A stretch of DNA of 64,000 bases. It comes from an uncultured Parcubacteria group bacterium. GTDB taxonomy: Bacteria > Patescibacteriota > Patescibacteriia > UBA9934 > CAMTUG01. The stretch spans positions 74,166-138,165 of the forward strand of contig CAMTUG010000001.1 of NCBI GenBank assembly GCA_947084965.1, written 5' to 3'. The position numbers and the translations under genes are program-made. The notes below the pieces were generated by a model. The model was given only the letters and a program-made list of their open reading frames with translations. It searched no databases and was not told the origin of the DNA. Positions 5,657 to 32,265 of this stretch are shown one piece after another (the stretch's first letter is position 1; each line of letters begins with the position of its first letter).

Positions 5657-5665
5657 TGCTATACT
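5657..5665 (+). promoter_or_regulatory. Extended -10 promoter TGCTATACT, 10 nt before ATG
   Basis: Same motif as at 1699. Confidence 0.5.
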
Positions 5666-5675
5666 GTGAACGGGT

Positions 5676-6338
5676 ATGGAAGAACGACCCGTTTTAGATT
5701 ATCAACCGCGAGTGTTCTCGAAAGAAGAGAAGGTTGCTTTTGTGTTTCTGATTATCGCCGGGATCGGCGGACTCTTTTTCGGAATGAAGTATCTGGGGAA
5801 GAATCTGGAAGCGCCGTTTGTCTTTTCTTATAACGGAGAAAAGTTTTTAACGAGTGATCAGAAAGAATCAGCCGAGGCCGAAGCGATGAAAGGCCGCGAC
5901 ACCGACGGGGACACATTGAACGATTACGACGAGGTGTATATCTATAAAACGTCTGCCTATCTCGCTGACTCCGATTCCGACGGCTACAACGACAACACAG
6001 AATTAGAAAGCGGCAATGATCCGAACTGTCCGATCGGGAAGGAGTGTACAGGATCAGCATCGGTTGACACGGCGGTCGACGCAAGCGATGCGTTGATTGG
6101 CGGACTGGCTGAACCACAAGCGCCAGATCTCGTCGCCGCTCAGGCGATCCTTGATCAGGCCGAAGATCCGGCGGTGGCAATTACGCAAGTGACCGCAGAG
6201 CAGTTGCGTGATCTCTTGATCGCCAATGGCGCGGACGAAGCGACGGTCAATCAGGTGGATGATTCGCAGCTGATGCTTATGTACGAAGAGGCCCTCAGAC
6301 AGTACGCAGAATCACAATCATCCTCAGGAACACCCTAA
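5676..6338 (+). CDS. Secreted/membrane-anchored acidic protein with thrombospondin type-3-like Ca-binding repeats
   Basis: N-terminal TM; DTDGDTLNDYDE and DSDSDGYNDNTE repeats; 3 nt upstream of the giant gene. Confidence 0.55.
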   Translation: MEERPVLDYQPRVFSKEEKVAFVFLIIAGIGGLFFGMKYLGKNLEAPFVFSYNGEKFLTSDQKESAEAEAMKGRDTDGDTLNDYDEVYIYKTSAYLADSDSDGYNDNTELESGNDPNCPIGKECTGSASVDTAVDASDALIGGLAEPQAPDLVAAQAILDQAEDPAVAITQVTAEQLRDLLIANGADEATVNQVDDSQLMLMYEEALRQYAESQSSSGTP

Positions 6339-6341
6339 GCT

Positions 6342-9300
6342 ATGGACGAACAGAAACCAAAACGGAACGGGTATCTTCTTCGCCGGGCAGGGGCGACCGT
6401 TTGTCTCCTTTTTGTTTTGTTTGCGGCGGTGCTTCCGTCAGCGGTATCCGCTCAGGTTGTTCAGGTTGTCACTGCTCCAGGTGTGCCAATCGAGACGACA
6501 GAAGATCTAAAAAAGGAGCTCATTGAAAAGCCGTTCCAGGTCGCCTTTTTGACGATCATCTGGAATTTCATGACGTTTATTTCGAATCGCATCGCCTACG
6601 ATGCAGCTGTGGCGATCGCGACGGCCGGTAATGGGGAAGAGCCGTTGATTGAATTGCGCGATCCGATGCGTTATTTAGAGGATCTAGGAAAGGACGTCGT
6701 TGGTGCGGGTATCGATGCCTTAAATCAGTCGCTTGAGGCGGTTAACATCCACTTTGATCTGTGTGCTCCAAAAGCGCCACTGGTTAAACTTTCGCTCCAG
6801 CTTGGTATTCGTTCGGCCTACGACCGCCCGGAACCAGATTGTGATTTTCAAGAGCTGACAGAAAACTGGGAGGCCTTTACGGCATCTACGATCTTTTCCG
6901 CCAGCCCGGACGAGGCGGCACTGTTTCAATTTTCCGCCACGATGAATCCGCGCACGACTGATCTCTCCTCTGCTATTACCCTTCTTGATCAGATTTATAC
7001 CGACGAAGCTCTGACAAAATCAAGTAGTTTTGCTGAGTATCTTGCCAACAACGGGTATAAGAACGTCGTTAATAGCATCACGGGTAATGTAGAGACCCCA
7101 GCTGATCTTGTTGAAAATGCATGGAGCAGGTCGGTTGAAATTGCTATTCCAACAAAGGAAGACCGCATCGCTGGGTTTAACTTTTTCTTAGAGTCTAAGG
7201 ATTTATGGAAACAGCTTGGTGTTTCTGCCTTGAGTACATTTGCCAACACGTTGCTTTCTACATTCACCCAGCGCATTTATAGTGGGATGTTTGACATCGA
7301 CATTCCAGAATCTGATGTATTGGACGTCGGAACGATTACGTTTCGCGGTGGTGTCGATGCGGCCGAATCGCATTTCCGGTCGATGTTTACAGCCAAAATC
7401 ATCAGTTTAGATAACTACAGTGTCATTTCAGAATTTTTGACTTGCCCGGGAACGACGACACGACAGCTAAACAACTGCGTGATGGATAGTGGCTTCGGTA
7501 ACGCTGTCGCTGGGGCTGAGGTTGGTGACCCGTTTACGGTACAAGAAGCGATTGATGAAGGATACATTCATGGCGATTGGCCGCTGATCAGCCAGGACGA
7601 TTCTCGCGACCTGGACCAGAATTGTTATAGTTACGGATATTGTTACGGCAACTTAGTTCGCATGCGCAAAGCGCGGATCATCCCGGTGGGATGGGAGATG
7701 GCCGCATCGATCCAGGCGGCTGGAGATTCAGATACTTTACAAGATGTCATCGATCAGTTTGATGACTGTAATGCTGATAATGAACGGGATCCGAGCCATC
7801 CGTATTGCCACCTAATCGACCCAAATTGGGTTTTGAAATATCCCTCGACGCAATGCCGCGCGAGTGTGCCAGGACAATTAGTTGACAACGACGGCATAAA
7901 ACGCGGAACAGAGTGTGTTGATGCTCCGAGCTGTATTCAAGAAGATGCCGGGGGAGAGTGTGTTGGTGGTTATGGCTACTGTGTGCGTGAGCAGAACAGT
8001 TTCGACTTCCGTGGCACTTCTTGTCCCGAGCAATACGCTACCTGTTTGGCAGTCAGTAATGAAGATGACGAATTGTCGGGGAACTATCTCTTTAATACCA
8101 CAGACCTCGAAGAATGCGATGCGGATTCTGCAGGCTGCCGCTGGTATCAGACGACCAAAGAATCAACAGACGATGTCTTTGACTGGCCGACGATCGATGA
8201 CTTGCCAACGCTTGACGCCGCGGCTGGCACGTATGCTTCTCGTTTTTACTACAACAACGACGTCGAGGAATGTGATTCAGACGACGCTGGTTGTACGCGG
8301 GTGATTGAAAAGACGGACGATGTCACCTTGAACCTCATCCGAAATCCGAGCTTTGAAGATGATGAGGATGCCGACGGTGTGCCGGATTACTGGACGTTCA
8401 CGGGAGCGGGAACGTACGACCTTTCAGGGACGACCTCCGCTTTTGCCAGTGATTCAGTAGCTCCAGGGGCTTCCGGATCATCGGCGATTATTTATCAGAC
8501 CGATCTCCCGCTCCAGCAGGCGACGTTCTACACTCTTTCGTTTTATGCCGAGCAGGCCGATGCGACCAGTAGTGAGACATTAACGGTTTATGCCGTTATA
8601 AATTCAGAGGATGGTTCAGCAGAAGTTGACCTGAGTGGTACGAGTTATGGCGGTGACTGTACGATTGCCGATTTAGATAGCTCTGGAGGCGAGGAAACGA
8701 TCCTCATGAGTGTGACCCCGGCCTCGAACACTTCCGAGCGCTTCAGTTGTACCTTTACCTCACCAACGTTCACGGATGAGGATCTTGGAGTGCGAATCCA
8801 GTTCCTCGACTTCATCGGCGAGGAGATTTATGTCGACGCCGTTCAGCTTGAAGCCGACGAGGATCTTTCGGATTTCGTCGTTGGATACGGCACAACGCTT
8901 GAGCAGTTGAATCCGACGTACTATAAATTACCACCGTCTTACCTGGGCTGTACGGGCGATAGCGACGTGGATCCTGCTGAATGCGCTGATTACGCGCCGG
9001 TCTGTACAGCGCAAGACGTTGGATGTTCCGAATACACTCCGGAAAACGGGGATCCGGTGGTGACCGGTATCGCTGGTGCGCTTGATGAATGTCCGGCGGT
9101 TTGTTCAGGGTATGACACCTATAAGCAAGAACCGACGCGGTACGAACCGGACGGAGATTTCCCGTTGTACTTTATCCCTGACACCGCCATCTCGTGCGGC
9201 GCGCAGTACGTTGGATGTGATGAATTCACCAATTTAAATACCGAAGAGCGCGAATCCTACACCTACTTGCGCGCTTGCCAGACGACGACCCAAACGACCG

Positions 9301-12300
9301 ACGAAGCGACCTACTACACCTGGGAAGGCTCAGATCTCGAAGGGTTCCAGCTCGTCTCTTGGTCGCTGATGCAGAGCGACACCACGGACGCTCCGTGTAC
9401 GACCTGGTCAACAACTTCAAGCGCGATCGAGTGTGCGGATCTTTCCACTGCCGGCACGGACGATGCTTGCGATGAGCACGACGATATTTTTGAGAATCCC
9501 GACTGTCGTGAATTCTACGACGCCGATGGCGACATCTTCTATCGTCTTTGGTCAGAAACGGTGACAGTAACGGATTCGTGCACTCCGTATCGCAAGACGC
9601 AGATCGTCGGTGATGATGCCACGGAACAAGCGAGCAACTGCTCCGGTGCCGGTGGTTATTGGGACGGAACGGTCGGGGAGTGTAATTTTTACGGCTACGC
9701 GGATGAGTCCGACGAGTGCCCAGCCACGGCCAACGGGTGTCGTGAATACACCGGCGGCAATAGCCGCAACTCCTCGGTTGTTTATGAGGATGATGTAGAG
9801 GATGAAGACATCGATGAATATATCGTCAACGCAACGACTACCACGGCCGAGGTCAGCAATGAATCGGTCGCCACAGACGGTCACTCGATTCACGTTGAGA
9901 TGTCGGCCGATGACGGCTATGTGGCGGTCGCATCCGCAACGATGGCCGACTGTTCTGAATCGGACGGCTGTACCGCCGATACTGCGGATGAAGACGCCGA
10001 CGGTTCCACCGCTGATTGTGGCGAATCCGACGGTTGTGATGCAGAAGTCGGCACGCTCGGAGTTTCCTGCACGATTAGCGAGGGGGACGCTACGTGTGGC
10101 GCCTTGACCGGGGAACTGGCAGAAGGAAAAGTGTACATCTTAAAATTCTGGGCGAAGACTACGACCAGCAGCTTAGTCATCACTCCGGTATTTATCGAAC
10201 AGGCAGGGACAGGGGATGAATATCAGTTTGATACAGTGACCCTTTCTCCGATCTGGAAGGAATACACCGTCGGCCCGCTCGACACAACGGATGAATCCGG
10301 TTTCGATGATTCAGCCCTTTTGGCCTTCATGGCCGACAGCGGGGCGGAGTTCTATCTCGACAACATCACCTTGCGACAGACCGAAGAAAACATCACCGTT
10401 ATTAAAGATTCTTGGGAAACCCCAGCGACCTGTGATGAAACAGAGGATGGCGTCAGTTCAGATCAGTATCATCTCGGGTGCCAGGAATATCGCGATCAAG
10501 ATGGCGAAACGGTGTACTTGAAGTCCTTCACGCGATTGTGCGACGAAGATCAGGTCGGTTGTGCGGCGTTCTACGACACCCAATCATCGGATTCCGTCTA
10601 CGGCGCGGTGTACAACATCACCTGTGAAGCGGTCACCTCGGCCGGGATCGGCGGAGCGTGCGAAATCGACGGGGAAGAAGTTTGCGACATGGCTGCAGGG
10701 GAGTCTTCCTGCCAGTTTGACTGGATTGGCGGGGTGCCGCGCGAAGATGATGGAACGCTTAAAGATCTGGATAGCACCGATTATCAGTTAGCTCTAAACG
10801 CGGATGCGGTGGTCGTCCCGCCAGACGAAGTGACCTACTTCGTCGCCAGCGATACGTATGCCTGTGACGAAGGCGCTATGGGCTGTATGGAGGTCGGCGT
10901 GCCGACGTACAACCAAGATCAATCGCAGGTAGCCTCCTGGGAAACGAGCTATCTGTTGAATGTGGTCGATGCGTATGATGATATTTTGTGCAACGTCGAT
11001 ACGCTCTTCTGCGAAGCCTGGGACACGACTCAAAATGGGACGTATTACTTCAAGTATCCGCAGGACAAAACGTGCGAATACCGCACCGGAGTGGTGATCG
11101 ACGGATCAGAGTATTCGGGGTGGTTCCGCACGGACACCGATCAATTCTGCTACGGTTCAGGGACCTGTTCGGATGACGCGACCGTTTCCTGCAGCCTTGA
11201 TGCTGATTGTGCCTCTGCCGATGCAGGAACGTGTGAAATCAACGATGGATCGTACGTTCAAGGCGGCACGTTCTCTGGTGTTTGGAGGAACGGGGATACG
11301 GCGTTCGACGGTTGGGTTGGCACGTGTGACGATGAATACGACCTCTGTTCAGAATTTATCGACACACTCGATGTTGGGGAGAACGGCCTTTACGGAACGG
11401 ACGGAGGTTCGTCCAGCTTCTTCTTGAATAACGATGAACTCGATGAGTCAAACTTGCCAGCGTCAAAGCAGTGTTCGGGCCAAGTGAGTCAGAAACAAGG
11501 GTGTATCCTGTTTAATGACACCCTCGATTCTGAATTGAATTATAATGCTTCAGCAACGTATACGCTGAGTGTCCATGCTAACGAATTCTATTCAGGTACA
11601 ATGACCTACGGACTGGTCGATCCGATTAGCTGCCCAGATTCTGGGGTCGTTGAAACGTTGAGTGGCACGTCCTACGATCTTTGCGCGATGCGTTGTACGT
11701 ACCGCAACGATCTGTTGCATCCTTACGAAGACTATTCAACGACCACGGGAGAGGATTTTTACACTTTTACGACTTCTTGTATCTATGACAGTGACTGCCC
11801 ATTGATTGAATCGGACGGCAGCGATCTTGTTGACGGAACGTGCGAAACAGGAACCTTTACTGGTGCAGGAAGCTCAGGGAGCATTACGGTTCCGACTCTT
11901 GAAGACGATACCAATCGTATCCAAAAAGTGAATCTCGACCGCGACTGCGCCGAGTGGCTTTCGTGTTCATCGCAAACAACAGTTTGGGATGAGTCAGCGA
12001 GCGCCTACAAGACCGTCTGTGATGGTATCGGAATGTGTAATGAATACTCCTCGCTCGGTGAAACAAGTTTCTGCACCAACTGGAACATTGATGCCAGTCC
12101 AACTCTGCTGACGAGTAATCATTACGCTTCGCGCGATATTGGTTGGTACGGATATGAATATGCTGGGTATGCCGTTCCGTATAGTCTGCCGGCGCATCTT
12201 TTGAGTCAAAAGAATGTCAATCCTAGCAAATGGTGTACTTACTCAACAGCAGATGGCAGTGTGTATGATGGCCGCGATTACGGATACGAGACCCCGTTTA

Positions 12301-15300
12301 TTGATTGTTCGGCAGATGATGGTATGTGTGATGATGCGACGGGCTCGACGAGCGCCGTCTGTAGTTCGGCTCCAACGGACTATCGCTTGGTCTACGACGC
12401 TGGAACGTGCGACGAGGAAAACGGTGAAAGTTGTGAAGTTGGTTTCTGTGCCTCAAGCGGCGCATCGTGCGGAACCGACAGTGACTGTGATTCGGGCGAC
12501 ACCTGTGAAACAGGGTATTGTGGATACGCCGCATCATCCGGAACGTGCGAGGTTGATGCAGACTGTACCGACTCAGTGTACAACACCTGTAATAACAATC
12601 TCTGCACTACCTTAACAGCCGAAGCCTGTTCCGTCTCTTCAGAATGTACTAATACGTCACTTGGTACCGCTACTTGTATTGATTCAGCTACATCGATGGA
12701 CGGGATGTGCTTTGAAAACGAGTGTTTGGTTGATGTTTCTGATCGAGATGAAGACGGGAATCTTGATGACTTTGATTACGATCTGGCCGAAGCTCTTGAT
12801 TGTCGAGGGTGGCCAGAAAGTTCCGCTCCGTTCCCAAATGAAGTAGTAACGATCTGGCAAAACGCCGACGGGGCGACCGACGCCACCCCAGATGGTGATG
12901 AAAACGCGATCACGACGCTGTCGACCTTTGAAGATGTCAATTTGTGTGCGGGCGGCGAAGAATGTCTCTGTAACTACGATGTGGTTGAGTATGGCACGGG
13001 GAAAACGTGGTATTACGATCAGGCCTCAGACGCGATCCCGACCTATAAGTGCGTTGGTGGGTTGTATGATGGTGGCGAATGTGATGCCACCGCCGGTGGA
13101 GCGATGGTTATTGATGATGTTATTCAGACAGAATTGTGTTCAGAGGGGTCAGGAGTTTGCACGCGCCTTTCTTCCCAACAAACGATGATTGGGCTTGAGG
13201 GTTACTGCTTAGAGCGTGACACGTCGCTCACCCTAAACGGTCAGACCGGGGAAGCACCGTGTCTGACCTGGCTCCCCGTCGATCGTCCAGCGGGCGCGAC
13301 GGACATTTACGGCAAAGCGACCGAAGCGGGATATCCACTCGAAGACACCTTCTACTGCGGCGACATCGATCTGTACATGGATGTTCCGACTTCGTCGATC
13401 GGTTGTGCCCAGCACGAAACTTCGTCTGGTGGTCAAGATTGTAACTATGTAAGTAGTACGGAAGATCCTTACTGGGGTGACTTGCTCCGCGGGGACGGAA
13501 ACGCCGTTTGTCCGGACGGTATGTTCGCTGTGATCGGCCGCTGTATCGATTCGGATGGTAAAACGGACGGTGATTTTGATGACCCGTATGCCTCCTCGAG
13601 TGGAAATTCAGCCGTAGATACCTGCATGGCGGACGCTGCTGATGATTCAAACGATCATCCCTACTTCTGTGTCCCTGAAGGTTCGGTACATACAGAAGGG
13701 ATCGACGAAGGAGATCTTTGCGACATTCCAGATGACGACCTGCTTAATGACTTCGGAGCTGCCTTAAATGAGGTAAAAGAAAGCGACTGGGATTACGATG
13801 ATGTCTGGGACATTAACGGAACGTGGGGTCAGATGGAGACCGTAGCTTCATCGTTATCACTCGGGAACGATGTCTATAAGATTGAGGCCCAGCCGGATGA
13901 ATTCGATACACTGTACGAGTACTATTCTGATTGTGTATTAGAAGGAGTCGACTACTTATCGACTAAGAATAATCCGTACTTAATCCCGACACCGGATAAC
14001 TTACTTAGCGGTTCGTACTACACCTGTTCAAACAGCAGCGGCCCGAGCCGCGAAGCGGCAGTTTGTGCTGATGGAAACTATGATAATCGTGACCTCGTTT
14101 CGGAAGTGGAGAATAGTTACCACGACCTGACATTTGGCACTGTCGTTTATCCAGGGTGTTCTTCGATTGTCCAGGTCGCTTCGACGACAGAAAACAGAGC
14201 CTGGACCGACCGCGTGCTCTTTGATGGTCGCGCGTATGCGATCGATCAGTTCTCGTCCGCTTCGCTCGCCTTCACGATGGATACGGTGGAAAATCCGTTC
14301 GGTGTCTCGGTATCTCCGACCTATTTGAACGAAGAGATTGATCCGAACCCAGCCCGTCCGCTTAGCTGTCTTGGTGACATTGACGGTGACGGCTATGATG
14401 ACATCTATTTGCCGAACGTGAGTGGATCATGTGGTTCTGGCTCATTGATCTCGGATGGCCTCAACCAGGGCCGCGCTTACGACGACTTTGACGGGGAAAC
14501 GGGAGGGTACATCATGGTTAGCGACAGTGAAAATCTGCGCCCAGATCAGGTTCTCTTCGGCCTGATCTCCCCGAGTACGGCTTGGGAAAACGCCATCTCC
14601 GAAATTTTTGCCTTCGCTAATACCTGGTCGAGGTTTGATCAAGGATTGGACGATGATGACGACTTTGAATCGATCGGGTCGTACAGTACTCTTGCAGAAT
14701 CATCCGGCCTGTGGGACATCACGGACTCTGGGGACAGTAATATCGAAGATGGTAATCCGACTGCGCCTGTTGTGCGTGCGGTCGGTGAAACGTGTGTCGA
14801 TCAGTACTGCCGTGAAGGGGTCGAAGATACCTTCAGCGTTAACGGCCAAGACGACAGCGACTTAACCGGTGATGGCGGCCAATTCTTCGCTGACGTGAAG
14901 TTCTTCGTCGAAGCGAACGCCAACCAGATGCCGATTCGTCGTGTGATCGTTGACTGGCAGGATCAGCGCGATACCATGTCCGGTTCGTTGACCGACGATA
15001 ATTACTACAAGAACCGCCGTGGGTTAAACGACAGCAACAACCATTGGTGCGAGCAGGAAACGAACTGGGGCGAAACCGCCGAAGCCTGTGAACCAAACTA
15101 CTTCAATACCACCAATGTCTACACCTGTTCCATGGCACTCGTGGAAACGCTCCCTGTCTGTTCCACTAATGACTCAGGTAACTTGGAAGAATCTCCATGT
15201 CGTGGTGGTGACTCCGGCTACAGCGAAGATGTCTGTATCTTCCAGCCGCGTGTCCACGTTCGCGACAACTGGGGTTGGTGCACAGGGGTGTGTGGGACGG

Positions 15301-15443
15301 ATGGGGAGAGCTGTTATGATGGGGATGGGGAAATTATGACTAATGATAGTACTGATGAGTGTAATTTAGACTACCCGAATGCAGATATGACAGCATGGGA
15401 TCCCTGGGTCTATTACGAAGGACTGATCATCGTTGAGCCATAG
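6342..15443 (+). CDS. Giant secreted Cys-rich acidic surface protein (3033 aa), function unknown
   Basis: Uninterrupted 9.1 kb ORF; signal peptide; >150 Cys, D/T/S/G-rich; no recognisable catalytic motif. Confidence 0.85.
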   Translation: MDEQKPKRNGYLLRRAGATVCLLFVLFAAVLPSAVSAQVVQVVTAPGVPIETTEDLKKELIEKPFQVAFLTIIWNFMTFISNRIAYDAAVAIATAGNGEEPLIELRDPMRYLEDLGKDVVGAGIDALNQSLEAVNIHFDLCAPKAPLVKLSLQLGIRSAYDRPEPDCDFQELTENWEAFTASTIFSASPDEAALFQFSATMNPRTTDLSSAITLLDQIYTDEALTKSSSFAEYLANNGYKNVVNSITGNVETPADLVENAWSRSVEIAIPTKEDRIAGFNFFLESKDLWKQLGVSALSTFANTLLSTFTQRIYSGMFDIDIPESDVLDVGTITFRGGVDAAESHFRSMFTAKIISLDNYSVISEFLTCPGTTTRQLNNCVMDSGFGNAVAGAEVGDPFTVQEAIDEGYIHGDWPLISQDDSRDLDQNCYSYGYCYGNLVRMRKARIIPVGWEMAASIQAAGDSDTLQDVIDQFDDCNADNERDPSHPYCHLIDPNWVLKYPSTQCRASVPGQLVDNDGIKRGTECVDAPSCIQEDAGGECVGGYGYCVREQNSFDFRGTSCPEQYATCLAVSNEDDELSGNYLFNTTDLEECDADSAGCRWYQTTKESTDDVFDWPTIDDLPTLDAAAGTYASRFYYNNDVEECDSDDAGCTRVIEKTDDVTLNLIRNPSFEDDEDADGVPDYWTFTGAGTYDLSGTTSAFASDSVAPGASGSSAIIYQTDLPLQQATFYTLSFYAEQADATSSETLTVYAVINSEDGSAEVDLSGTSYGGDCTIADLDSSGGEETILMSVTPASNTSERFSCTFTSPTFTDEDLGVRIQFLDFIGEEIYVDAVQLEADEDLSDFVVGYGTTLEQLNPTYYKLPPSYLGCTGDSDVDPAECADYAPVCTAQDVGCSEYTPENGDPVVTGIAGALDECPAVCSGYDTYKQEPTRYEPDGDFPLYFIPDTAISCGAQYVGCDEFTNLNTEERESYTYLRACQTTTQTTDEATYYTWEGSDLEGFQLVSWSLMQSDTTDAPCTTWSTTSSAIECADLSTAGTDDACDEHDDIFENPDCREFYDADGDIFYRLWSETVTVTDSCTPYRKTQIVGDDATEQASNCSGAGGYWDGTVGECNFYGYADESDECPATANGCREYTGGNSRNSSVVYEDDVEDEDIDEYIVNATTTTAEVSNESVATDGHSIHVEMSADDGYVAVASATMADCSESDGCTADTADEDADGSTADCGESDGCDAEVGTLGVSCTISEGDATCGALTGELAEGKVYILKFWAKTTTSSLVITPVFIEQAGTGDEYQFDTVTLSPIWKEYTVGPLDTTDESGFDDSALLAFMADSGAEFYLDNITLRQTEENITVIKDSWETPATCDETEDGVSSDQYHLGCQEYRDQDGETVYLKSFTRLCDEDQVGCAAFYDTQSSDSVYGAVYNITCEAVTSAGIGGACEIDGEEVCDMAAGESSCQFDWIGGVPREDDGTLKDLDSTDYQLALNADAVVVPPDEVTYFVASDTYACDEGAMGCMEVGVPTYNQDQSQVASWETSYLLNVVDAYDDILCNVDTLFCEAWDTTQNGTYYFKYPQDKTCEYRTGVVIDGSEYSGWFRTDTDQFCYGSGTCSDDATVSCSLDADCASADAGTCEINDGSYVQGGTFSGVWRNGDTAFDGWVGTCDDEYDLCSEFIDTLDVGENGLYGTDGGSSSFFLNNDELDESNLPASKQCSGQVSQKQGCILFNDTLDSELNYNASATYTLSVHANEFYSGTMTYGLVDPISCPDSGVVETLSGTSYDLCAMRCTYRNDLLHPYEDYSTTTGEDFYTFTTSCIYDSDCPLIESDGSDLVDGTCETGTFTGAGSSGSITVPTLEDDTNRIQKVNLDRDCAEWLSCSSQTTVWDESASAYKTVCDGIGMCNEYSSLGETSFCTNWNIDASPTLLTSNHYASRDIGWYGYEYAGYAVPYSLPAHLLSQKNVNPSKWCTYSTADGSVYDGRDYGYETPFIDCSADDGMCDDATGSTSAVCSSAPTDYRLVYDAGTCDEENGESCEVGFCASSGASCGTDSDCDSGDTCETGYCGYAASSGTCEVDADCTDSVYNTCNNNLCTTLTAEACSVSSECTNTSLGTATCIDSATSMDGMCFENECLVDVSDRDEDGNLDDFDYDLAEALDCRGWPESSAPFPNEVVTIWQNADGATDATPDGDENAITTLSTFEDVNLCAGGEECLCNYDVVEYGTGKTWYYDQASDAIPTYKCVGGLYDGGECDATAGGAMVIDDVIQTELCSEGSGVCTRLSSQQTMIGLEGYCLERDTSLTLNGQTGEAPCLTWLPVDRPAGATDIYGKATEAGYPLEDTFYCGDIDLYMDVPTSSIGCAQHETSSGGQDCNYVSSTEDPYWGDLLRGDGNAVCPDGMFAVIGRCIDSDGKTDGDFDDPYASSSGNSAVDTCMADAADDSNDHPYFCVPEGSVHTEGIDEGDLCDIPDDDLLNDFGAALNEVKESDWDYDDVWDINGTWGQMETVASSLSLGNDVYKIEAQPDEFDTLYEYYSDCVLEGVDYLSTKNNPYLIPTPDNLLSGSYYTCSNSSGPSREAAVCADGNYDNRDLVSEVENSYHDLTFGTVVYPGCSSIVQVASTTENRAWTDRVLFDGRAYAIDQFSSASLAFTMDTVENPFGVSVSPTYLNEEIDPNPARPLSCLGDIDGDGYDDIYLPNVSGSCGSGSLISDGLNQGRAYDDFDGETGGYIMVSDSENLRPDQVLFGLISPSTAWENAISEIFAFANTWSRFDQGLDDDDDFESIGSYSTLAESSGLWDITDSGDSNIEDGNPTAPVVRAVGETCVDQYCREGVEDTFSVNGQDDSDLTGDGGQFFADVKFFVEANANQMPIRRVIVDWQDQRDTMSGSLTDDNYYKNRRGLNDSNNHWCEQETNWGETAEACEPNYFNTTNVYTCSMALVETLPVCSTNDSGNLEESPCRGGDSGYSEDVCIFQPRVHVRDNWGWCTGVCGTDGESCYDGDGEIMTNDSTDECNLDYPNADMTAWDPWVYYEGLIIVEP

Positions 15444-15456
15444 ATATTTGGGCAAT

Positions 15457-15494
15457 TTTAATAGGCGGGAGCCACTGTGCCCCGCCTATTAAAA
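15457..15494 (+). terminator. Terminator hairpin after giant gene
   Basis: taataggcggg-agccactgtg-ccccgcctatta inverted repeat. Confidence 0.55.
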
Positions 15495-15500
15495 TATCAA

Positions 15501-15541
15501 CTAAAAAGCGTTGACCACCATGGAGTGTACATGGTGGTCGT
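15501..15541 (-). terminator. Rho-independent terminator of lipoprotein gene, copy 1 of duplicated hairpin
   Basis: gaccaccatgg-agtgtac-catggtggtc then GCTTTTTAG on minus strand; near-identical copy at 16589-16628. Confidence 0.65.
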
Positions 15542-15586
15542 GCGCGCGCCGGGGATGTGTCCTCGGCGGAAGAAGTTGTGGCCCGA

Positions 15587-16243
15587 TCAGAGGCGGGTGC
15601 AGGTGTAGCGGTAGTTCGCACCCCCGTCGGTGTTGACGACCCGGCCGGTCAGCGTGTCGGTGCCCTCGAGGATGAGCTTGATGTAGCCGTCCTGGTGGGT
15701 GAACTCGACGAAGTTGCCGTTGATCGTCGCCGTGTTGTTGCCGACCGCGATGCCTTCCATCTGGAGAGCACAGCCGTTGTTGATCTCGGCCGTGACCCCG
15801 TTGTACACCGTGGCGCCCGACTCGCTCGAGCAGTCCCAGGTCCCGGACAAGTCGGCGCAGAGGTTGCCGGACAGGTCGGCGATCTCGCTGACGTCGTTCG
15901 ACCCGTAGCCGAGGTAGTTCACGCCGTTCGCGCTGTAGGTGTACGCGGCGGTGTGGATCTCGGGGGAGAGGCCGTCGATGTAGTCGATCGTCTTGCGGCC
16001 GGTCTGGACGCCGTCGATCGCGTAGTCGGCGCTGATCTCCTCGGTGTCGACGAGGGTGAACTCGGTGAAGTCGTCGTTGGCCTCGTAGGTGTTGAGGCTC
16101 GCGGCGGCGAGCACGTCGTTGACGGTCTCCTCGGTGCCGTCGGTGTTGTCGGGGTTGGTGTCGAGATCGCGGCCGTCGGTGACGGTCGGATCGGTGATGT
16201 CCCCGCCGCACGCGGCGAGGAACACGAGGGCGATGAAGCGCAT
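15587..16243 (-). CDS. Lipoprotein, acidic D/T/G-rich, GC-rich gene (paralog of 16676-17284)
   Basis: Start MRFIALVFLAACGG (lipobox LAAC) with AGGAGG RBS; about 68 % GC. Confidence 0.7.
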   Translation of the reverse strand: MRFIALVFLAACGGDITDPTVTDGRDLDTNPDNTDGTEETVNDVLAAASLNTYEANDDFTEFTLVDTEEISADYAIDGVQTGRKTIDYIDGLSPEIHTAAYTYSANGVNYLGYGSNDVSEIADLSGNLCADLSGTWDCSSESGATVYNGVTAEINNGCALQMEGIAVGNNTATINGNFVEFTHQDGYIKLILEGTDTLTGRVVNTDGGANYRYTCTRL

Positions 16244-16588
16244 GGCTTCCTCCTGTGTTGCCTTTCGGCGGGTGGGTGAGTTTCCGTTGGCCGGTAAAAG
16301 AGATACTCGGCTGGCCAGGGATCCTCGGGGGATCAAGGAACTGTCTTTCAGGGATCAGCTCTCTCGAAATTGCTCCGGAAATCTCACTTTCTTAGAGTTT
16401 CCGCTAGGATTGACGATAATCCGAGCAGTTTCGAGAGGGCGATCAACCTGATGACTCAAAATCAACGTACCATGAAATAGGGGAATAGTCAATGCGTCAA
16501 GGTGTGGGCGGTGGATAAGTGCATATTTTAGCCAATTTCTGCTAAAAGTTTTGCGACACATAATCAGGTGGTTTCTGCAAGGTTCGCA

Positions 16589-18216: not shown

Positions 18217-20286
18217 ATGCGCCTCACCAGGCTTCTTTACACCCACATCATCGTCTTCATCCTCGGGATGATCACGATGCTCACGAGCCTCACCGGCTGC
18301 TCGGATCCGTTCGAACAGTGGCAGGAAGAGATGCGTCTGGCCGAGATCGGCGGCCACGAAGGCGACATCATCGATCTGCCGTTCGAGGCGGGCTACGAGG
18401 CGCTCTGCACCCAGGGGGCGCATGGGGAGTACAGCCACGCGAGCGAGTCGACCGAGTACGACATCGACCTCGACACCCCGAACGACAGCGTCGACCTCGT
18501 CTACGCCCCGGTCGGCGGGGTGGCCTACGTCCACATGGACTCGGCGTCCAAGAACTTCGGCTACCACGTCAACATCGACCGCGACGACGGGACCTACGTC
18601 ATCCTCGGACACCTCTCGGACATCTACGTCGAGGACGGGGTCGAGGTGGCGGCCGGGCAGATCGTCGGGACGGAAGGGTGCACGGGCTACTGCTCGGGCG
18701 ACCACGTCCACTTCGGTCTGCACTCCGGCGATGCGGCGAGCCCCGGTGAGCGGGCGACCTCGATCAAGGTCAGCTACCTGGTCGACGACGTGACCGCCGG
18801 GGAGGAGGGCGAGGTCTACACCAGCGAGGAGATGATCTGCGACCTCGAAGGCGGCGGGCACCGCTACCGCTCGCTCCTCACGACCCCGACCTGGCACCCC
18901 AACGGGTCCTTGGTCAAGACCCCGTGGGACGAGGAGGTCTTCCTGATCGAGAACGGCACCAAGCGGTGGATCACCGATCAGGACGTCTTCTGGTCGCTCG
19001 GCTACTCCTTCGAGGACGTGGCGCTCATCTCCGGCACGGAGCTGAACTGCTACGACCAGGGGGATGACGTGGCCACGGCGGACGAGGTGCCGACCGCGTA
19101 CACGAGCGCGGACGGGACGGTGACGCTCCACGAGGGCGAGCTGGTCAAGGAGAGCTCGGAGAGCGACGTCTACGTCATCTCGGAAGGGGTGGCGATGCCG
19201 ATCGAATCCTGGGACGTGCTCCTGAAGCTCGGCTGGGGTGAGCGGCCGATCACCACGATCGACGACGGGACGATCGAGGAGATCGTCGGCGCGGTCGGGA
19301 GCTGTGCGGCCGACATCTGGTGCCTCGACCACGACCTCCTCGAGGCGTGCGAAACGACCAACCCGGCCAACGTCGGCGGGAGCGAGGACACCGCGAGCGA
19401 GGAGGAGAACGAGACCGAGGCTGTGGATCCGTCGTCGATGCTCGAGGGGGAGATCGAGGACGGGGAGTTCGGGCTCGTGTTCCTGCCGCCCGATGGCTAC
19501 GAAGCGGAGCACATCACCCTCACCGGGACCGCGATCGACGCTGAGGGGAACACCCTCTACGCCGAGCGCGAGCTGGCGAGCGAGAACGGGGACACGGCGC
19601 TCTGGTGGACGACCATGGCGTTCGAGGACGGTGGAGTCTTCGACTTCTACGTCACCTACACCGACGGGATGGGCGACCGCTACTCCTGCGAGATCGAGAA
19701 CGACGGGAGCTACCGCATGAACGGCACGCTCTACATGGTCTACGGCGCCGAGGTGATCGACATCGAGACCGTGCTCGAGAGTGCCAACGGCGGGCGGCAC
19801 TGCTACGTGCGGCCGCGGATTCCGCCGGGGTACACGATCGAGATCGATACCGGCGACTCGAACAGCAGCGGGGACACCGGAGAGCCGACGGTCGACACCG
19901 GAACCGCCACCGACGCGGAGGTCGAGATCTGCTACGCCCCCGGGGTGACGATGTCTGGCGGGGAGCTCTACCTCGACGGAGGATTCTTCACCCACTGGGA
20001 TACGAGTCCGGCTGACACCGCCGCTTCCGGCGACACGACGATGTGCGAAACGGTCACCGCTGTCTCAGGAGAGACGATCAAGGTGAACGGTTGGTTCATC
20101 GAGCGCGGCGGATCCGGGACGGTCGAGTGGGCGGCGTACAACAACGTGTGCGCGTCGATCGACTGGCAGGGGAGTGTGACCGTGGACTCGGCGAGCGTCA
20201 GCGTGACGACCGCGCCGTGGAGCGCCGCGTCCTGGGCCAGCGACCCCTGCATGACCGGCGGGGACGGCTACTTCACCGTCCCGTAG
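18217..20286 (+). CDS. Lipoprotein with M23 (LytM-type) metallopeptidase domain, 689 aa, GC-rich
   Basis: Lipobox LTGC; HxxxD (HVNIDRDD) and HxH (GDHVHFGLH) motifs; AGGAGG RBS; about 68 % GC. Confidence 0.75.
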   Translation: MRLTRLLYTHIIVFILGMITMLTSLTGCSDPFEQWQEEMRLAEIGGHEGDIIDLPFEAGYEALCTQGAHGEYSHASESTEYDIDLDTPNDSVDLVYAPVGGVAYVHMDSASKNFGYHVNIDRDDGTYVILGHLSDIYVEDGVEVAAGQIVGTEGCTGYCSGDHVHFGLHSGDAASPGERATSIKVSYLVDDVTAGEEGEVYTSEEMICDLEGGGHRYRSLLTTPTWHPNGSLVKTPWDEEVFLIENGTKRWITDQDVFWSLGYSFEDVALISGTELNCYDQGDDVATADEVPTAYTSADGTVTLHEGELVKESSESDVYVISEGVAMPIESWDVLLKLGWGERPITTIDDGTIEEIVGAVGSCAADIWCLDHDLLEACETTNPANVGGSEDTASEEENETEAVDPSSMLEGEIEDGEFGLVFLPPDGYEAEHITLTGTAIDAEGNTLYAERELASENGDTALWWTTMAFEDGGVFDFYVTYTDGMGDRYSCEIENDGSYRMNGTLYMVYGAEVIDIETVLESANGGRHCYVRPRIPPGYTIEIDTGDSNSSGDTGEPTVDTGTATDAEVEICYAPGVTMSGGELYLDGGFFTHWDTSPADTAASGDTTMCETVTAVSGETIKVNGWFIERGGSGTVEWAAYNNVCASIDWQGSVTVDSASVSVTTAPWSAASWASDPCMTGGDGYFTVP

Positions 20287-20423: not shown

Positions 20424-20927
20424 ATGGAAACGAATATTCCCATCGAACGTATCTATCAAAATATTTATCTCATTCGGGGAAAAAAGGTTATGTTAGATTC
20501 TGATCTGGCTATCCTTTATGGTGTAGAGACAAGATCCCTAAACCAAGCCGTGCGTCGCAATATCGAACGTTTTCCGGAAGACTTTATGTTTGAACTAAGC
20601 TCAGTTGAGCTAAAATCTTTGAGATCACAAATTGTGATCTCAAACGGTCGAGGTGGAGCCAGATATGGCCACATGGTTTTTTCTGAATACGGAATCGCCA
20701 TGTTATCGAGTGTTTTGCGAAGTGAAAAGGCGGTGCAGGTCAATATTCAGATCATTCGGGCATTTATTGCTCTGCGTGACTTTGTGCTTAGTAATGATGA
20801 TTTGCAGATGAAAATCGAAGCACTTGAATTGCGTTATGACGGCGAGTTGCGTTCAGTTTTCGATGCTCTGAATCGTCTTCTGACTGAAGAGGAGAAGCCG
20901 GAACCAGAAATCGGCTTCAAAACTTGA
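20424..20927 (+). CDS. ORF6N/KilA-N domain protein (phage antirepressor-like DNA-binding)
   Basis: KVMLDSDLAILYGVETRSLNQAVRRNIERFPEDFMFEL signature. Confidence 0.7.
   Translation: METNIPIERIYQNIYLIRGKKVMLDSDLAILYGVETRSLNQAVRRNIERFPEDFMFELSSVELKSLRSQIVISNGRGGARYGHMVFSEYGIAMLSSVLRSEKAVQVNIQIIRAFIALRDFVLSNDDLQMKIEALELRYDGELRSVFDALNRLLTEEEKPEPEIGFKT
20619..20643. repeat. Perfect 25-nt palindrome ttgagatcacaaattgtgatctcaa inside ORF6N gene
   Basis: Identical to copy at 20925-20949. Confidence 0.7.
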
Positions 20928-32064: not shown

Positions 32065-32155
32065 GGAGAGGTACCCAAGTGGTTGAAGGGGACGGTTTGC
32101 TAAATCGTTAGGGGTCGCAAGGCCCGCGAGGGTTCGAATCCCTCCCTCTCCGCCA
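32065..32155 (+). tRNA. tRNA-Ser (anticodon GCU), CCA encoded
   Basis: Cloverleaf with long variable arm; anticodon loop ttGCTaa. Confidence 0.85.
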
Positions 32156-32175
32156 TGCAAATTTTGTGCTATGAT

Positions 32176-32265
32176 GGTGGGGTGCTCGAGTGGTTTAAGA
32201 GAACAGTCTTGAAAACTGTCGTGGGTGAAAGCTCACCGTGAGTTCGAATCTCACCCCCACCGCCA
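32176..32265 (+). tRNA. tRNA-Ser (anticodon UGA), CCA encoded; preceded by TGcTATGAT -10
   Basis: Acceptor ggtgggg/ccccacc, anticodon loop ctTGAaa, long variable arm. Confidence 0.85.

What the first reader, a model, noticed from the sequence alone, without database searches (positions are those of the whole stretch)
6342..15443. 9.1-kb gene for a 3033-aa secreted Cys-rich acidic protein, co-transcribed with a TSP3-repeat protein
The single uninterrupted ORF has a signal peptide, extreme D/T/S/G content, more than 150 cysteines in recurring pairs, and no recognisable enzymatic motif. It is preceded by 3 nt by a membrane-anchored protein with thrombospondin type-3 Ca-binding repeats under a TGCTATACT promoter, and is terminated by a strong hairpin. 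Giant Cys-rich surface proteins are a hallmark of CPR and episymbiotic bacteria and are candidates for adhesion to host cells.
Basis: partly seen in the sequence, partly recalled or inferred. Interest (0 to 1): 0.55.

Follow-up and report, generated by a model that had tools for sequence, protein, structure and literature searches.

The report
Conserved giant cysteine-rich surface protein operon
This is a real, intact 9.1-kb gene for a 325-kDa secreted, disulfide-rich, very acidic protein that, with a small membrane-anchored partner gene, is kept almost unchanged in layout across hundreds of Uhrbacteria-type ultra-small (CPR) bacteria; it is most likely a permanent cell-surface fibre or tether, but its function has never been tested.

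Summary
The ORF 6342..15443 (+) is real. It has 3033 codons and no internal stops, its DNA is identical in an independent assembly, and it is collinear with more than 100 full-length homologues. It has a cleavable signal peptide, 37.8% D+T+S+G, and 135 Cys, not the ">150" reported; 116 of those Cys are at least 90% conserved.

It is not a repeat adhesin. It is an almost non-repetitive multidomain protein:
- an N-terminal helical domain
- a highly conserved core with a unique basic patch
- two CBM4/9-like jelly rolls
- long Cys-stapled modules
- one variable region (aa 2346-2800)
- a confidently modelled PKD-like C-terminal domain

The family occurs in at least 532 stretches of GTDB species genomes (Cand. 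Uhrbacteria, Komeilibacteria, other Patescibacteria). It comprises about 1,100 clusters at 50% identity in the protein library.

The 220-aa partner (TM helix plus two TSP3-type Ca-binding motifs) lies immediately upstream in 65/65 loci. An extended -10 promoter (57/60 loci) and a strong post-stop hairpin (47/52 loci) are also conserved. A DsbA-like oxidoreductase lies in the window.

Best reading: a constitutive, Ca2+- and disulfide-stabilised envelope fibre or tether with lectin-like modules. It is a new, unusually conserved member of the known class of giant CPR surface proteins. Function is inferred, not shown.

The parts
5657..5665 (+). Extended -10 promoter element TGCTATACT, 10 nt upstream of the partner gene's ATG. 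It implies a very short 5' UTR.
   Evidence: Sequence read. The consensus scan finds TCGAGA-16-TATACT with an upstream TG. TGnTATA[A/C]T lies between rsmA and the partner gene in 57 of 60 homologous loci, against 1.3 expected from shuffles.
5676..6338 (+). Partner gene: a 220-aa bitopic membrane protein. It has an N-terminal TM helix (aa 20-38), two TSP3-type Ca-binding motifs (aa 75-86 and 98-109), a conserved Cys pair (C118, C124), and a C-terminal ~50-aa conserved probable helical segment.
   Evidence: Translation, alignment, KD 2.14. A homologue lies immediately upstream in 65/65 loci. The typical homologue is 205-250 aa with exactly 2 motifs and 2 Cys, and ends no more than about 30 nt before the giant gene. 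Pfam TSP3_bac gives E 0.11. NCBIfam throspo3_MtsD gives a local match at E 2.6e-6, below cut-off.
6342..6452 (+). Signal peptide of the giant protein (aa 1-37, ...PSAVSA|QVV).
   Evidence: This is the only segment with KD above 1.6 (2.31). An n-region, h-region and A-x-A|Q pattern is present in all homologues inspected.
6453..7388 (+). N-terminal Cys-poor domain (aa 38-349), predicted to be all long alpha-helices.
   Evidence: The AF2 model shows helices over aa ~52-317 at pLDDT 50-70, so confidence is low. Mean pairwise identity is 32%. No significant PDB or fold match was found.
7389..8321 (+). Most conserved 'core' (aa 350-660, 17 Cys). It includes a confidently modelled subdomain (aa 387-497) and the only cluster of conserved basic residues (R440, R442, K443, R445; nt 7659-7676).
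   Evidence: Mean pairwise identity is 52%, with invariant residues listed. pLDDT is 80-94 for aa ~387-497. The core is found in 1096 clusters at 50% identity. In the 150 best hits listed it sits at about aa 330-440 of the ~2600-3700-aa proteins (one exception, at aa 602); the shorter hits are presumed fragments.
8322..8861 (+). CBM4/9-like jelly-roll domain A (aa ~661-840).
   Evidence: Pfam CBM_4_9 matches aa 664-759 at E 2.4e-10, 41.3 bits against a 25.9 cut-off. PF02018 is precomputed for most homologues.
8862..9791 (+). Cys-stapled module 1 (aa 841-1150, 18 Cys), with recurring C-x6-C-x2-[YFW] hairpin motifs.
   Evidence: Mean pairwise identity is 54%. Motifs are listed. Part of this module is duplicated with aa 1325-1518 (hhalign).
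9792..10391 (+). CBM4-like jelly-roll domain B (aa ~1151-1350).
   Evidence: The family profile hits the CBM4 of Thermotoga laminarinase 16A (1gui) at aa 1260-1347, E 3.3e-4. hhalign relates aa 723-764 to 1258-1296.
10392..13376 (+). Long Cys-stapled region (aa 1351-2345, 64 Cys). It is non-repetitive and includes a dense Cys cluster at aa 2001-2140.
   Evidence: Cys conservation is and regional identity of 38-48%. No Pfam or PDB sequence match was found. Apart from the CBM+Cys module duplication, no internal repeats were detected.
13377..14741 (+). Variable region (aa 2346-2800). It contains a DIDGDG Ca-loop-like motif (weak FG-GAP hit at aa 2676-2690).
   Evidence: Mean pairwise identity is 26%, and length ranges from 381 to 614 aa among 63 homologues. 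It is gap-rich. The FG-GAP hit has E 0.0046, below cut-off.
14742..15443 (+). Conserved C-terminal domain (aa 2801-3033, 12 Cys, motif DNWGWCTGxC) plus the stop codon. It is a PKD/Ig-like beta-sandwich with Cys-rich insertions. There is no LPXTG motif and no C-terminal TM segment.
15455..15495 (.). 17-bp AU-flanked GC-core hairpin between the convergent genes; a probable bidirectional terminator.
   Evidence: RNA fold gives dG -26.5 kcal/mol and z -4.85. The 100 nt after the stop fold with z below -2 in 47 of 52 homologous loci, median z -3.9.
15587..16243 (-). Convergent small acidic lipoprotein gene (probable start MRFIALVFLAAC|GG). It is conserved in position but only weakly in sequence, so its membership of the module is uncertain.
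   Evidence: The alignment with the downstream genes of four homologous loci shows a shared lipobox and D/T-rich N-terminus. A convergent lipobox ORF is present in 37 of 45 loci. It has no Pfam or NCBIfam hit.

Best explanation
The locus is a conserved two-gene operon of a Uhrbacteria-type Patescibacterium (CPR). It makes a permanent cell-surface fibre or tether.

Shown:
- A dedicated, phylogenetically conserved extended -10 promoter precedes a 220-aa bitopic membrane protein with two TSP3-type acidic Ca-binding motifs.
- Three nucleotides later comes the 3033-aa giant, and a conserved hairpin ends the unit.
- The giant has a cleavable Sec signal peptide, no membrane or sortase anchor, 134 mature Cys (an even number, 116 at least 90% conserved), and a calculated pI of about 4 or lower.
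- Its domain order is fixed: helical N-domain, conserved core with a basic patch, CBM4/9-like A, Cys module, CBM4-like B, about 1000 aa of Cys-stapled sequence, a variable region, and a PKD-like C-terminal domain.
- A DsbA-like oxidoreductase is encoded in the same window.

Inferred:
- After export the protein is oxidatively folded into a chain of disulfide-stapled, Ca2+-stabilised modules.
- One end, probably the N-terminal helical domain with the basic patch, is held at the cell. The holder could be the acidic extracellular part of the partner protein, the neighbouring lipoprotein or the wall.
- The rigid beta-rich middle projects outward.
- The two lectin-like CBM modules, the variable region and the PKD-like end contact external glycans. 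These could belong to a host cell wall, to neighbouring cells or to particulate polysaccharide.
- Conservation of the whole architecture beside housekeeping genes suggests a constitutive envelope component rather than a rapidly evolving, host-specific adhesin.
For: - Gene integrity: the ORF is intact and independently assembled.
- Family breadth: 299 homologues, the best 120 nearly all full length at 34-52% identity. 532 stretches in GTDB species genomes are titled Uhrbacteria or Patescibacteria. 1096 clusters at 50% identity carry the core, which among the 150 best hits listed lies near aa 330-440 in the ~3000-aa proteins. A 27%-identical collinear homologue with the same partner and rsmA neighbour occurs in Cand. 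Komeilibacteria.
- Cysteines: 116/135 Cys are at least 90% conserved, and close Cys pairs are enriched.
- Export: the signal peptide is present, with no other TM segment and no LPXTG.
- Partner and context: partner upstream in 65/65 loci and RsmA in 60/61, with spacing mostly 10 nt or less. The promoter is conserved in 57/60 loci against 1.3 expected, and the hairpin in 47/52.
- Local features: a unique conserved basic cluster lies within the high-confidence subdomain. A single variable region spans aa 2346-2800.
- Disulfide machinery: DsbA-like protein at 38097..38756. CPR-enriched DsbA/MdbA-VKOR systems are described in 10.1101/335083.
- Precedent: giant surface proteins with PKD, integrin or CBM-type domains are proposed for surface fibres and attachment in other CPR (PMC8080830; PMC4736985; PMC10936435).
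Against: - No localisation, expression or binding data exist for any member; every source calls it 'hypothetical protein'.
- No recognised wall-anchoring module was found (SLH, CWB2, LysM, LPXTG). The proposed docking on the partner is pure inference, and the polarity (which end is proximal) is unknown.
- Most of the protein could not be modelled confidently (mean pLDDT 53 for aa 38-660), and nothing between aa 661 and 2794 was modelled at all.
- CBM4/9-like jelly rolls can be purely structural, and their ligand sites were not assessed.
- The degree of conservation is unusual for adhesins.
- An episymbiotic lifestyle has not been demonstrated for Uhrbacteria here.
Confidence: 0.55

Rival explanations
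1. S-layer or sheath protein. The giant self-assembles, with Ca2+, into the paracrystalline outer layer seen on ultra-small CPR cells, and the partner and/or lipoprotein tether it to the membrane.
For: - It is secreted, very acidic, Ser/Thr-rich and lacks an anchor.
- Each of the 80 retained loci comes from a different assembly, and the gene is universally conserved with its own strong conserved promoter beside housekeeping genes.
- It carries Ca-binding-type motifs.
Against: - From general knowledge, S-layer proteins are typically Cys-poor and evolve fast. This one has 4.45% Cys with 116 fixed positions.
- No SLH or other S-layer anchoring domain was found. The only SLH-related PDB match had E 0.25, which is noise.
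- At 325 kDa it is far larger than known bacterial S-layer subunits.
- Abundance is unknown.
Confidence: 0.15
2. Secreted glycan-targeting protein for nutrition. The CBM modules bind environmental or host polysaccharide, and the conserved core (aa 350-660) is a novel hydrolase/lyase or a scaffold for such enzymes, like a cellulosome scaffoldin.
For: - There are two CBM4/9-type modules; the closest solved relative is the CBM4 of a laminarinase.
- The core has many invariant charged residues: D425, R442, R445, E452, D493, R521, D527, E550.
Against: - No catalytic family was detected in Pfam or NCBIfam, by PDB profile search of the whole protein, or by fold search of aa 38-660 and 2795-3033; aa 661-2794 was never modelled.
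- No cohesin or dockerin modules were found.
- About 2000 aa of disulfide-stapled non-catalytic sequence and a dedicated membrane partner are hard to rationalise for a diffusible enzyme.
Confidence: 0.12
3. Fast-evolving host-specific adhesin or virulence factor, as for the strain-variable Cys-rich giants of Peregrinibacteria. This is essentially the first reader's reading. The protein's main role would be specific recognition of one host species.
For: - It belongs to the class of giant Cys-rich extracellular CPR proteins (PMC4736985).
- It has a variable region of 381-614 aa at 26% identity near the C-terminus.
- It carries lectin-like and PKD-like modules.
Against: - About 85% of the length, the domain order, 116 Cys positions and the genomic context are conserved across hundreds of species from very different habitats.
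- There are no tandem repeat expansions.
- No within-population variation data are available.
Confidence: 0.12
4. Contact-dependent toxin or effector-delivery protein (polymorphic-toxin-like giant exoprotein).
For: It is a giant secreted protein. T4SS-like genes lie elsewhere in the window: a VirB4/TraG-like ATPase and a T4SS pilin-M23 fusion.
Against: - The C-terminus is conserved and PKD-like, not a variable toxin tip.
- No immunity gene follows it; the downstream gene is a convergent lipoprotein.
- No toxin or PADLOC-type domain was seen in Pfam or NCBIfam.
- The Sec signal peptide argues against T1SS, T4SS or T5SS-style export.
Confidence: 0.03

Closest known systems
Large extracellular cysteine-rich proteins of CPR Peregrinibacteria (Ca. 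Peribacter riflensis; Anantharaman et al. 2016, PMC4736985)
   Same: - CPR origin.
- More than 1000 aa with a signal peptide and a very high Cys content.
- Weak FG-GAP/integrin-like hints.
- Mostly no functional annotation.
- Proposed roles in rigidity and attachment.
   Different: [quoted passage not shown]
- This family was found once in each of the 80 retained loci (each from a different assembly), is architecture-locked across hundreds of species, and is paired with a conserved membrane partner.
- Sequence homology between the two sets was not tested.
Giant membrane-associated proteins of Vampirococcus lugosii (Absconditabacteria; Moreira et al. 2021, PMC8080830)
   Same: - Proteins of 1392-4163 aa in a CPR bacterium carrying PKD, integrin and fibronectin-type interaction domains.
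- Thought to form the fibrous cell surface and to mediate host recognition.
   Different: - Different lineage and different domain sets.
- No evidence there of a dense conserved disulfide framework, CBM4/9 pair, or TSP3 partner operon.
- No homology was shown.
CBM family 4/9 carbohydrate-binding modules (Pfam PF02018; e.g. CBM4 of Thermotoga maritima laminarinase 16A, PDB 1gui)
   Same: Two domains of the giant match this beta-jelly-roll family by sequence. One is above Pfam's gathering score. The second matches by family profile against 1gui at E 3.3e-4.
   Different: - Here the modules are embedded in a non-enzymatic 3033-aa protein.
- Ligand-binding residues and sugar specificity are unknown.
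Bacterial thrombospondin type-3 repeat proteins (Pfam TSP3_bac PF18884; Myxococcus cell-cell cohesion protein MtsD, NCBIfam NF047639)
   Same: The partner carries two DxDxDGxxDxxE acidic Ca-binding-type motifs. They match the MtsD repeat region locally at E 2.6e-6. TSP3_bac is recorded for several orthologues.
   Different: - There are only two repeats in a 220-aa bitopic protein.
- Scores are far below the family cut-offs (12.8 against 25 bits; 25.9 against 800 bits).
- The match is at repeat level, not orthology.
PKD (polycystic kidney disease) Ig-like domains of secreted proteases, collagenases and archaeal S-layer proteins (PDB 4xed, 4l9d, 4u7k, 1l0q)
   Different: - Only about 95 of 239 residues align, and the rest are Cys-rich insertions.
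- No Pfam PKD match was found.
Giant repeat adhesins of Gram-negative bacteria (LapA/Bap/RTX adhesins, SiiE)
   Same: They share size, acidity, Ca2+-binding motifs and a proposed role as a rigid surface-projecting fibre.
   Different: - Those are built of tens of tandem Ig-like repeats, are Cys-poor, and are exported by T1SS with a C-terminal signal.
- This protein is essentially non-repetitive, Cys-rich and Sec-dependent.

Membership tests
Giant extracellular Cys-rich surface proteins of CPR bacteria (descriptive class, PMC4736985 / PMC8080830) | CPR/Patescibacteria origin | tested here: met
   All named homologues are Patescibacteria or Cand. Uhrbacteria/Komeilibacteria. The lineage was checked.
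Giant extracellular Cys-rich surface proteins of CPR bacteria (descriptive class, PMC4736985 / PMC8080830) | More than 1000 aa, signal peptide, predicted extracellular location, several % Cys | tested here: met
   3033 aa and 4.45% Cys. A signal peptide is present with no other TM segment.
Giant extracellular Cys-rich surface proteins of CPR bacteria (descriptive class, PMC4736985 / PMC8080830) | Strain-level hypervariation, as reported for the Peregrinibacteria examples | tested here: inconclusive
   Between species the architecture is strongly conserved, with one variable region at aa 2346-2800. No same-species strains were available, since the nearest relative is 52% identical.
Giant extracellular Cys-rich surface proteins of CPR bacteria (descriptive class, PMC4736985 / PMC8080830) | Actual surface location and role in attachment | not testable with these tools
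   Requires proteomics, microscopy or genetics.
CBM_4_9 (Pfam PF02018) carbohydrate-binding module | Sequence match above Pfam's gathering score | tested here: met
   aa 664-759 score 41.3 bits against a 25.9 cut-off, E 2.4e-10. A second copy is supported by the family profile against PDB 1gui at E 3.3e-4 and by hhalign.
CBM_4_9 (Pfam PF02018) carbohydrate-binding module | Carbohydrate binding / conserved binding-cleft residues | not tested
Glycan arrays are needed.
Bacterial TSP3 repeat protein (Pfam PF18884), for the partner | Match to the repeat model above the gathering score | tested here: not met
   E 0.11, 12.8 bits against a 25 cut-off for the window protein. Only 'faint' or 'weak' precomputed hits exist in orthologues.
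Bacterial TSP3 repeat protein (Pfam PF18884), for the partner | DxDxDGxxDxxE acidic Ca-binding motif in tandem | tested here: met
   Exactly two motifs occur in the window protein and in about 55 of 61 orthologues. A local match to the MtsD TSP3 region has E 2.6e-6. Ca2+ binding itself is not testable here.
S-layer protein | Known wall-anchoring module (SLH, CWB2 etc.) | tested here: not met
   No such Pfam or NCBIfam domain was found. The best SLH-related PDB hit has E 0.25.
S-layer protein | Typical composition: acidic, Ser/Thr-rich, Cys-poor | tested here: not met
   It is acidic and Ser/Thr-rich, but has 4.45% Cys.
S-layer protein | Self-assembly into a 2-D lattice; among the most abundant cell proteins | not testable with these tools
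   Needs cryo-ET or proteomics.
Tandem-repeat giant adhesins (Bap/LapA/RTX type) | Many tandem Ig-like/cadherin-like repeats | tested here: not met
   All-against-all hhalign of 120-aa profile tiles finds only one duplication, aa ~723-962 against ~1258-1518.
Tandem-repeat giant adhesins (Bap/LapA/RTX type) | T1SS C-terminal secretion signal or LPXTG sortase anchor | tested here: not met
   It has an N-terminal Sec signal peptide and no LPXTG, and its C-terminus is a folded PKD-like domain.
PKD domain (C-terminal domain) | Ig-like beta-sandwich superposable on solved PKD domains | tested here: inconclusive

The most novel reading that the evidence does not exclude
The partner-giant pair is the universal envelope scaffold or attachment organelle of a whole CPR phylum (Uhriibacteriota and neighbours). 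It would be a 325-kDa fibre stapled by about 67 disulfides and stabilised by Ca2+, docked on a TSP3 membrane anchor. It would either form the outer lattice seen on ultra-small cells or be the conserved tether through which these cells hold on to partners. This architecture has no counterpart among characterised bacterial surface systems.
Probability: 0.2. Interest if true: 0.7.

Novelty: new member of a known kind. Interest (0 to 1): 0.45.

Why it matters
Patescibacteria make up a large share of bacterial diversity, yet almost nothing is known about how the Parcubacteria-group lineages build their envelope or contact other cells. A 9.1-kb gene is a large investment for the small genomes typical of CPR bacteria. 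Despite that cost it is kept, with its partner gene, promoter, terminator and 116 cysteine positions, across hundreds of species. That makes it one of the best-defined candidates for a core surface structure of these organisms. It also gives concrete handles for study: an antigen, the CBM modules, a confidently foldable C-terminal domain, and a variable region to track in populations. The work further shows that 'giant Cys-rich CPR protein' is not a single category. This family is a conserved scaffold, unlike the strain-variable giants described in Peregrinibacteria.

Tried and rejected
The afdb50 fold library was not available.
3. PDB profile searches with the N-terminal tile (A5) and the C-terminal tile (A8) found nothing significant. 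The 14-3-3 and SLH hits at E 0.25 are noise. Single-sequence CBM-A against PDB also found nothing.
4. Pfam at E up to 10 on the core, the Cys-dense region (aa 2001-2350), the C-terminal domain and the lipoprotein gave no families. NCBIfam gave nothing for the giant.
5. A second homologue search with the C-terminal domain returned only 14 short fragments. These were useful as alignment rows but not informative otherwise.
6. Rejected: assembly chimera or frameshift, because the DNA is identical in a second assembly and the protein is collinear with homologues.
7. Rejected: a second TM helix at aa 67-85 (KD 1.33, family median 1.34).
8. Rejected: the + strand ORF 15557..16279, called as a gene in one assembly, as the real downstream gene. 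The convergent lipoprotein frame is the one conserved in four homologous loci.
9. The terminator-like hits inside the first 70 nt of the giant gene are treated as chance: 4 found against 1.8 +/- 1.0 expected.
10. Literature searches for this family in Uhrbacteria found no paper.

Full report
**Observation**

The window contains one uninterrupted ORF at 6342..15443 on the + strand: 3033 codons, ATG start, no in-frame stop. Its 9102 nt are identical in an independently assembled Logan contig. The exact protein is also on record from a 476,519-bp NCBI contig. Assembly chimerism and frameshifts can therefore be excluded.

- **Composition.** D 11.5%, T 9.0%, S 8.9%, G 8.4%. D+E is 560 against K+R 124. 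The mature protein is 324.5 kDa with a calculated pI at or below about 4.
- **Cysteines.** The 'recurring pairs' are real: 44 of 133 consecutive Cys-Cys gaps are 4-8 residues, against 23.8 +/- 4.2 for random placement. A C-x6-C-x2-[YFW] motif recurs.
- **Hydrophobic segments.** The only strongly hydrophobic segment is the N-terminal signal peptide (Kyte-Doolittle 2.31), with a family-wide A-x-A|Q cleavage pattern. There is no LPXTG and no C-terminal hydrophobic tail.
- **Upstream ORF.** The ORF 5676..6338 ends 3 nt before the giant's ATG, and an AGGA lies 10 nt upstream of that ATG. It encodes a 220-aa protein with one TM helix (aa 20-38, KD 2.14), two DxDxDGxxDxxE motifs and a conserved Cys pair.
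- **Flanking signals.** TGCTATACT is at 5657-5665. A 17-bp hairpin follows the stop codon at 15455-15495, with dG -26.5 kcal/mol and z -4.85.

**Organism and spread of the family**

The neighbouring genes are ordinary housekeeping genes: GroEL, a class-I release factor, an NAD-dependent sugar epimerase, Sua5/YrdC and RsmA.

The homologue search returned 299 proteins. The best 120 are 2536-3509 aa and mostly cover 80-100% of the query at 34-52% identity. Every one that has a name is a 'hypothetical protein' of Patescibacteria or Candidatus Uhrbacteria.

A scan of one genome per GTDB species found 532 stretches encoding a relative. The titles are overwhelmingly Cand. Uhrbacteria or Patescibacteria group. 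Many TPA records are evidently mislabelled 'uncultured Gammaproteobacteria'. NCBI places Uhrbacteria in the Parcubacteria group of the Patescibacteria.

An exhaustive HMMER search with the conserved core (aa 350-660) found 1096 clusters at 50% identity, 560 of them at E <= 1e-30. In the 150 best hits listed, the core sits at about aa 330-440 of the ~2600-3700-aa proteins, with one exception at aa 602. The shorter hits (540-2200 aa) are presumed fragments. A 27%-identical, fully collinear 3203-aa homologue occurs in a Cand. Komeilibacteria genome, again preceded by rsmA and a 233-aa TSP3-type partner. This is a large, architecture-locked family, not a one-off.

**Anatomy of the giant protein**

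In a 48-sequence alignment, 116 of the 135 Cys are conserved in at least 90% of sequences, even though overall identity is only 35-50%. The 63-sequence alignment A1 confirms the invariant Cys framework.

An all-against-all profile comparison of 120-aa tiles detects only one internal duplication, aa ~723-962 against ~1258-1518. This is a jelly-roll domain plus the following Cys module. Otherwise the protein is non-repetitive. The domain map is:

| Region (aa) | Description | Evidence |
|---|---|---|
| 1-37 | Signal peptide | |
| 38-349 | Cys-poor domain, predicted as long alpha-helices (pLDDT 50-70), 32% mean identity | |
| 350-660 | Most conserved region, 52% identity; confidently modelled subdomain at aa 387-497 (pLDDT 80-94) | |
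| 661-840 | CBM_4_9 domain, Pfam 41.3 bits against a 25.9 cut-off | |
| 841-1150 | Cys module | |
| 1151-1350 | Second CBM4-like domain; family profile against laminarinase CBM4 1gui, E 3.3e-4 | |
| 1351-2345 | About 1000 aa of Cys-stapled sequence without any database match | |
| 2346-2800 | The single variable region, 26% identity, 381-614 aa long | |
| 2801-3033 | Conserved C-terminal domain | |

The subdomain at aa 387-497 carries the only cluster of conserved basic residues in this very acidic protein: R440, R442, K443 and R445.

**The operon and its conservation**

tblastn of the window's neighbours against the homologous loci gives these counts:

| Neighbour | Present / loci with enough flank |
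|---|---|
| Partner, immediately upstream | 65/65 |
| RsmA | 60/61 |
| Epimerase | 52/54 |
| Release factor | 50/53 |
| GroEL | 40/48 |
| Sua5 | 42/57 |

- The partner orthologues are 205-250 aa with exactly two TSP3-type motifs and two Cys. They end within a few nucleotides of the giant's start, mostly 10 nt or less.
- The TSP3 label rests on the motif and on sub-threshold matches: Pfam TSP3_bac E 0.11, and a local match to the repeat region of the Myxococcus cohesion protein MtsD at E 2.6e-6, far below the equivalog cut-off.
An extended -10 element TGnTATA[A/C]T lies between rsmA and the partner gene in 57 of 60 loci, against 1.3 expected from shuffles. It usually sits 7-35 nt before the start codon, so the unit has its own promoter and a very short leader.
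- The 100 nt after the giant's stop fold significantly better than shuffles in 47 of 52 loci, median z -3.9.
- Downstream, a convergent small acidic lipoprotein gene (lipobox LAAC|GG; window 15587..16243, - strand) is conserved in position in 37 of 45 loci, but only weakly in sequence. Whether it belongs to the system is open.
- Elsewhere in the window a DsbA-like thioredoxin-fold protein (38097..38756, -) provides the expected extracytoplasmic disulfide oxidase. A CPR-enriched DsbA/MdbA family frequently adjacent to VKOR has been described (10.1101/335083).

**How it most likely works**

Shown by the analyses above:
- Sec-type signal peptide.
- A conserved even-numbered Cys framework.
- Lectin-type and PKD-type extracellular modules.
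- A dedicated membrane-anchored partner gene under a shared conserved promoter.
- A disulfide oxidoreductase encoded in the same window.

Inferred:
- The giant is exported and oxidatively folded into a chain of disulfide-stapled, Ca2+-stabilised modules. It stays on the cell because one end is held non-covalently.
- I favour the N-terminal helical domain plus the basic patch docking on the acidic ectodomain of the partner, or on the lipoprotein or wall polymers. The reasons are that this is the only conserved cationic surface, and that the partner is translationally coupled. The polarity is not established.
- The long beta-rich middle would act as a rigid spacer. The two CBM-like modules, the variable region and the PKD-like end would contact external glycans.

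Conservation of about 85% of the protein across hundreds of species, and its position among housekeeping genes, point to a constitutive envelope component rather than a rapidly diversifying host-specific adhesin. The variable region could still tune specificity. I put 0.55 on this 'conserved surface fibre/tether' reading.

Rivals:
- A true S-layer subunit (0.15). Acidity, conservation and Ca motifs are in favour. The Cys richness, the size and the lack of any S-layer anchoring module are against.
- A secreted glycan-targeting enzyme or scaffold (0.12). The CBMs and the invariant charged core residues are in favour. No catalytic family or fold was found, though aa 661-2794 was never modelled.
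- The classical fast-evolving adhesin (0.12).
- A toxin-delivery protein (0.03).

**Comparison with what is known**

Giant extracellular proteins are a recognised feature of CPR genomes.
- Peregrinibacteria encode about 20 large, signal-peptide-bearing, very Cys-rich proteins that are the main locus of strain variation. They were proposed to give rigidity or attachment (PMC4736985).
- Vampirococcus lugosii has giant membrane-associated proteins with PKD, integrin and fibronectin domains, thought to form its fibrous surface and bind the host (PMC8080830).
- Expressed Patescibacteria proteins with Ig-like, PKD and galactose-binding-like folds have been proposed as adhesion factors (PMC10936435).

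The present family belongs to that descriptive class. It differs in being found once in each of the 80 retained loci (each from a different assembly), non-repetitive, locked in architecture and Cys framework, and coupled to a conserved TSP3-type membrane partner. I found no paper describing it.

It is not a member of the tandem-repeat T1SS adhesins: no repeats and a Sec signal. It is not a member of known S-layer families: no anchoring module and Cys-rich. Membership in CBM_4_9 is met at domain level. PKD and TSP3 are resemblances below family thresholds.

**Verdict**

The finding is a new, well-delimited and unusually conserved member of a known kind, the giant CPR surface proteins. It is not a new kind of system, and its function remains inferred. 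Interest is moderate (0.45). It would rise substantially if the pair proved to be the universal envelope scaffold or attachment organelle of this phylum (probability about 0.2).

Noticed in passing
window 38097..38756 (-): DsbA-like thioredoxin-fold protein (PF13462 E 1.4e-24; PF01323 E 2.5e-13). It is the likely extracytoplasmic disulfide oxidase needed to fold the 134-Cys protein. No VKOR was looked for.
   Followed up: partly
window 26959..28947 (+), 36664..38094 (-), 18217..20286 (+): Scattered type IV secretion-like genes: a VirB4/TraG-like ATPase (PF19044 E 1e-28), a fusion of a T4SS pilin domain with an M23 peptidase, and a separate 689-aa M23 peptidase in a GC-rich stretch (65% GC at 18-20 kb).
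   Followed up: no
window 21007..23787 (+) and 23928..25571 (+): Two further large ORFs (926 and 547 aa) with no Pfam match, just downstream of an ORF6N-domain gene (20424..20927). A 952-aa gene without Pfam hits follows the M23 peptidase at the corresponding place in L003; its similarity to the window ORFs was not checked.
   Followed up: no
window 15587..16243 (-); L002-L005 and 37/45 loci: A convergent acidic lipoprotein (lipobox, D/T-rich N-terminus) is conserved in position next to the giant gene but is very divergent in sequence. It could be a third component of the surface module.
   Followed up: partly
window 15557..16279 (+) vs 15501..16336 (-): Three overlapping ORFs of 236-249 aa on both strands in an acidic-repeat-coding stretch. 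One public gene call (Logan) chose the + strand ORF, whereas comparison with homologous loci favours the - strand lipoprotein frame.
   Followed up: partly
L044 20882..26632 (+): A second very large ORF (1917 aa) lies about 2 kb downstream of the giant gene in one homologous genome (838,942-bp contig). It was not compared with the giant family.
   Followed up: no
loci L007, L014, L015, L021, L023 and many others: Many TPA metagenome-assembled genomes that carry this Patescibacteria-specific gene and its conserved neighbourhood are titled 'uncultured Gammaproteobacteria bacterium', and one is titled 'Candidatus Kapaibacterium'. These are apparently mislabelled or mis-binned records.
   Followed up: no
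window 32065..32265 and 32903..32979 (+): Two adjacent tRNA-Ser genes (GCT, TGA) and a tRNA-Arg (GCG). These are the only RNA genes found in the window by Rfam and ARAGORN.
   Followed up: no
window 5657..5678: The conserved extended -10 lies only about 10 nt from the partner's ATG here, and 7-35 nt in homologues. This implies a leaderless or near-leaderless mRNA for the first gene of the operon.
   Followed up: partly
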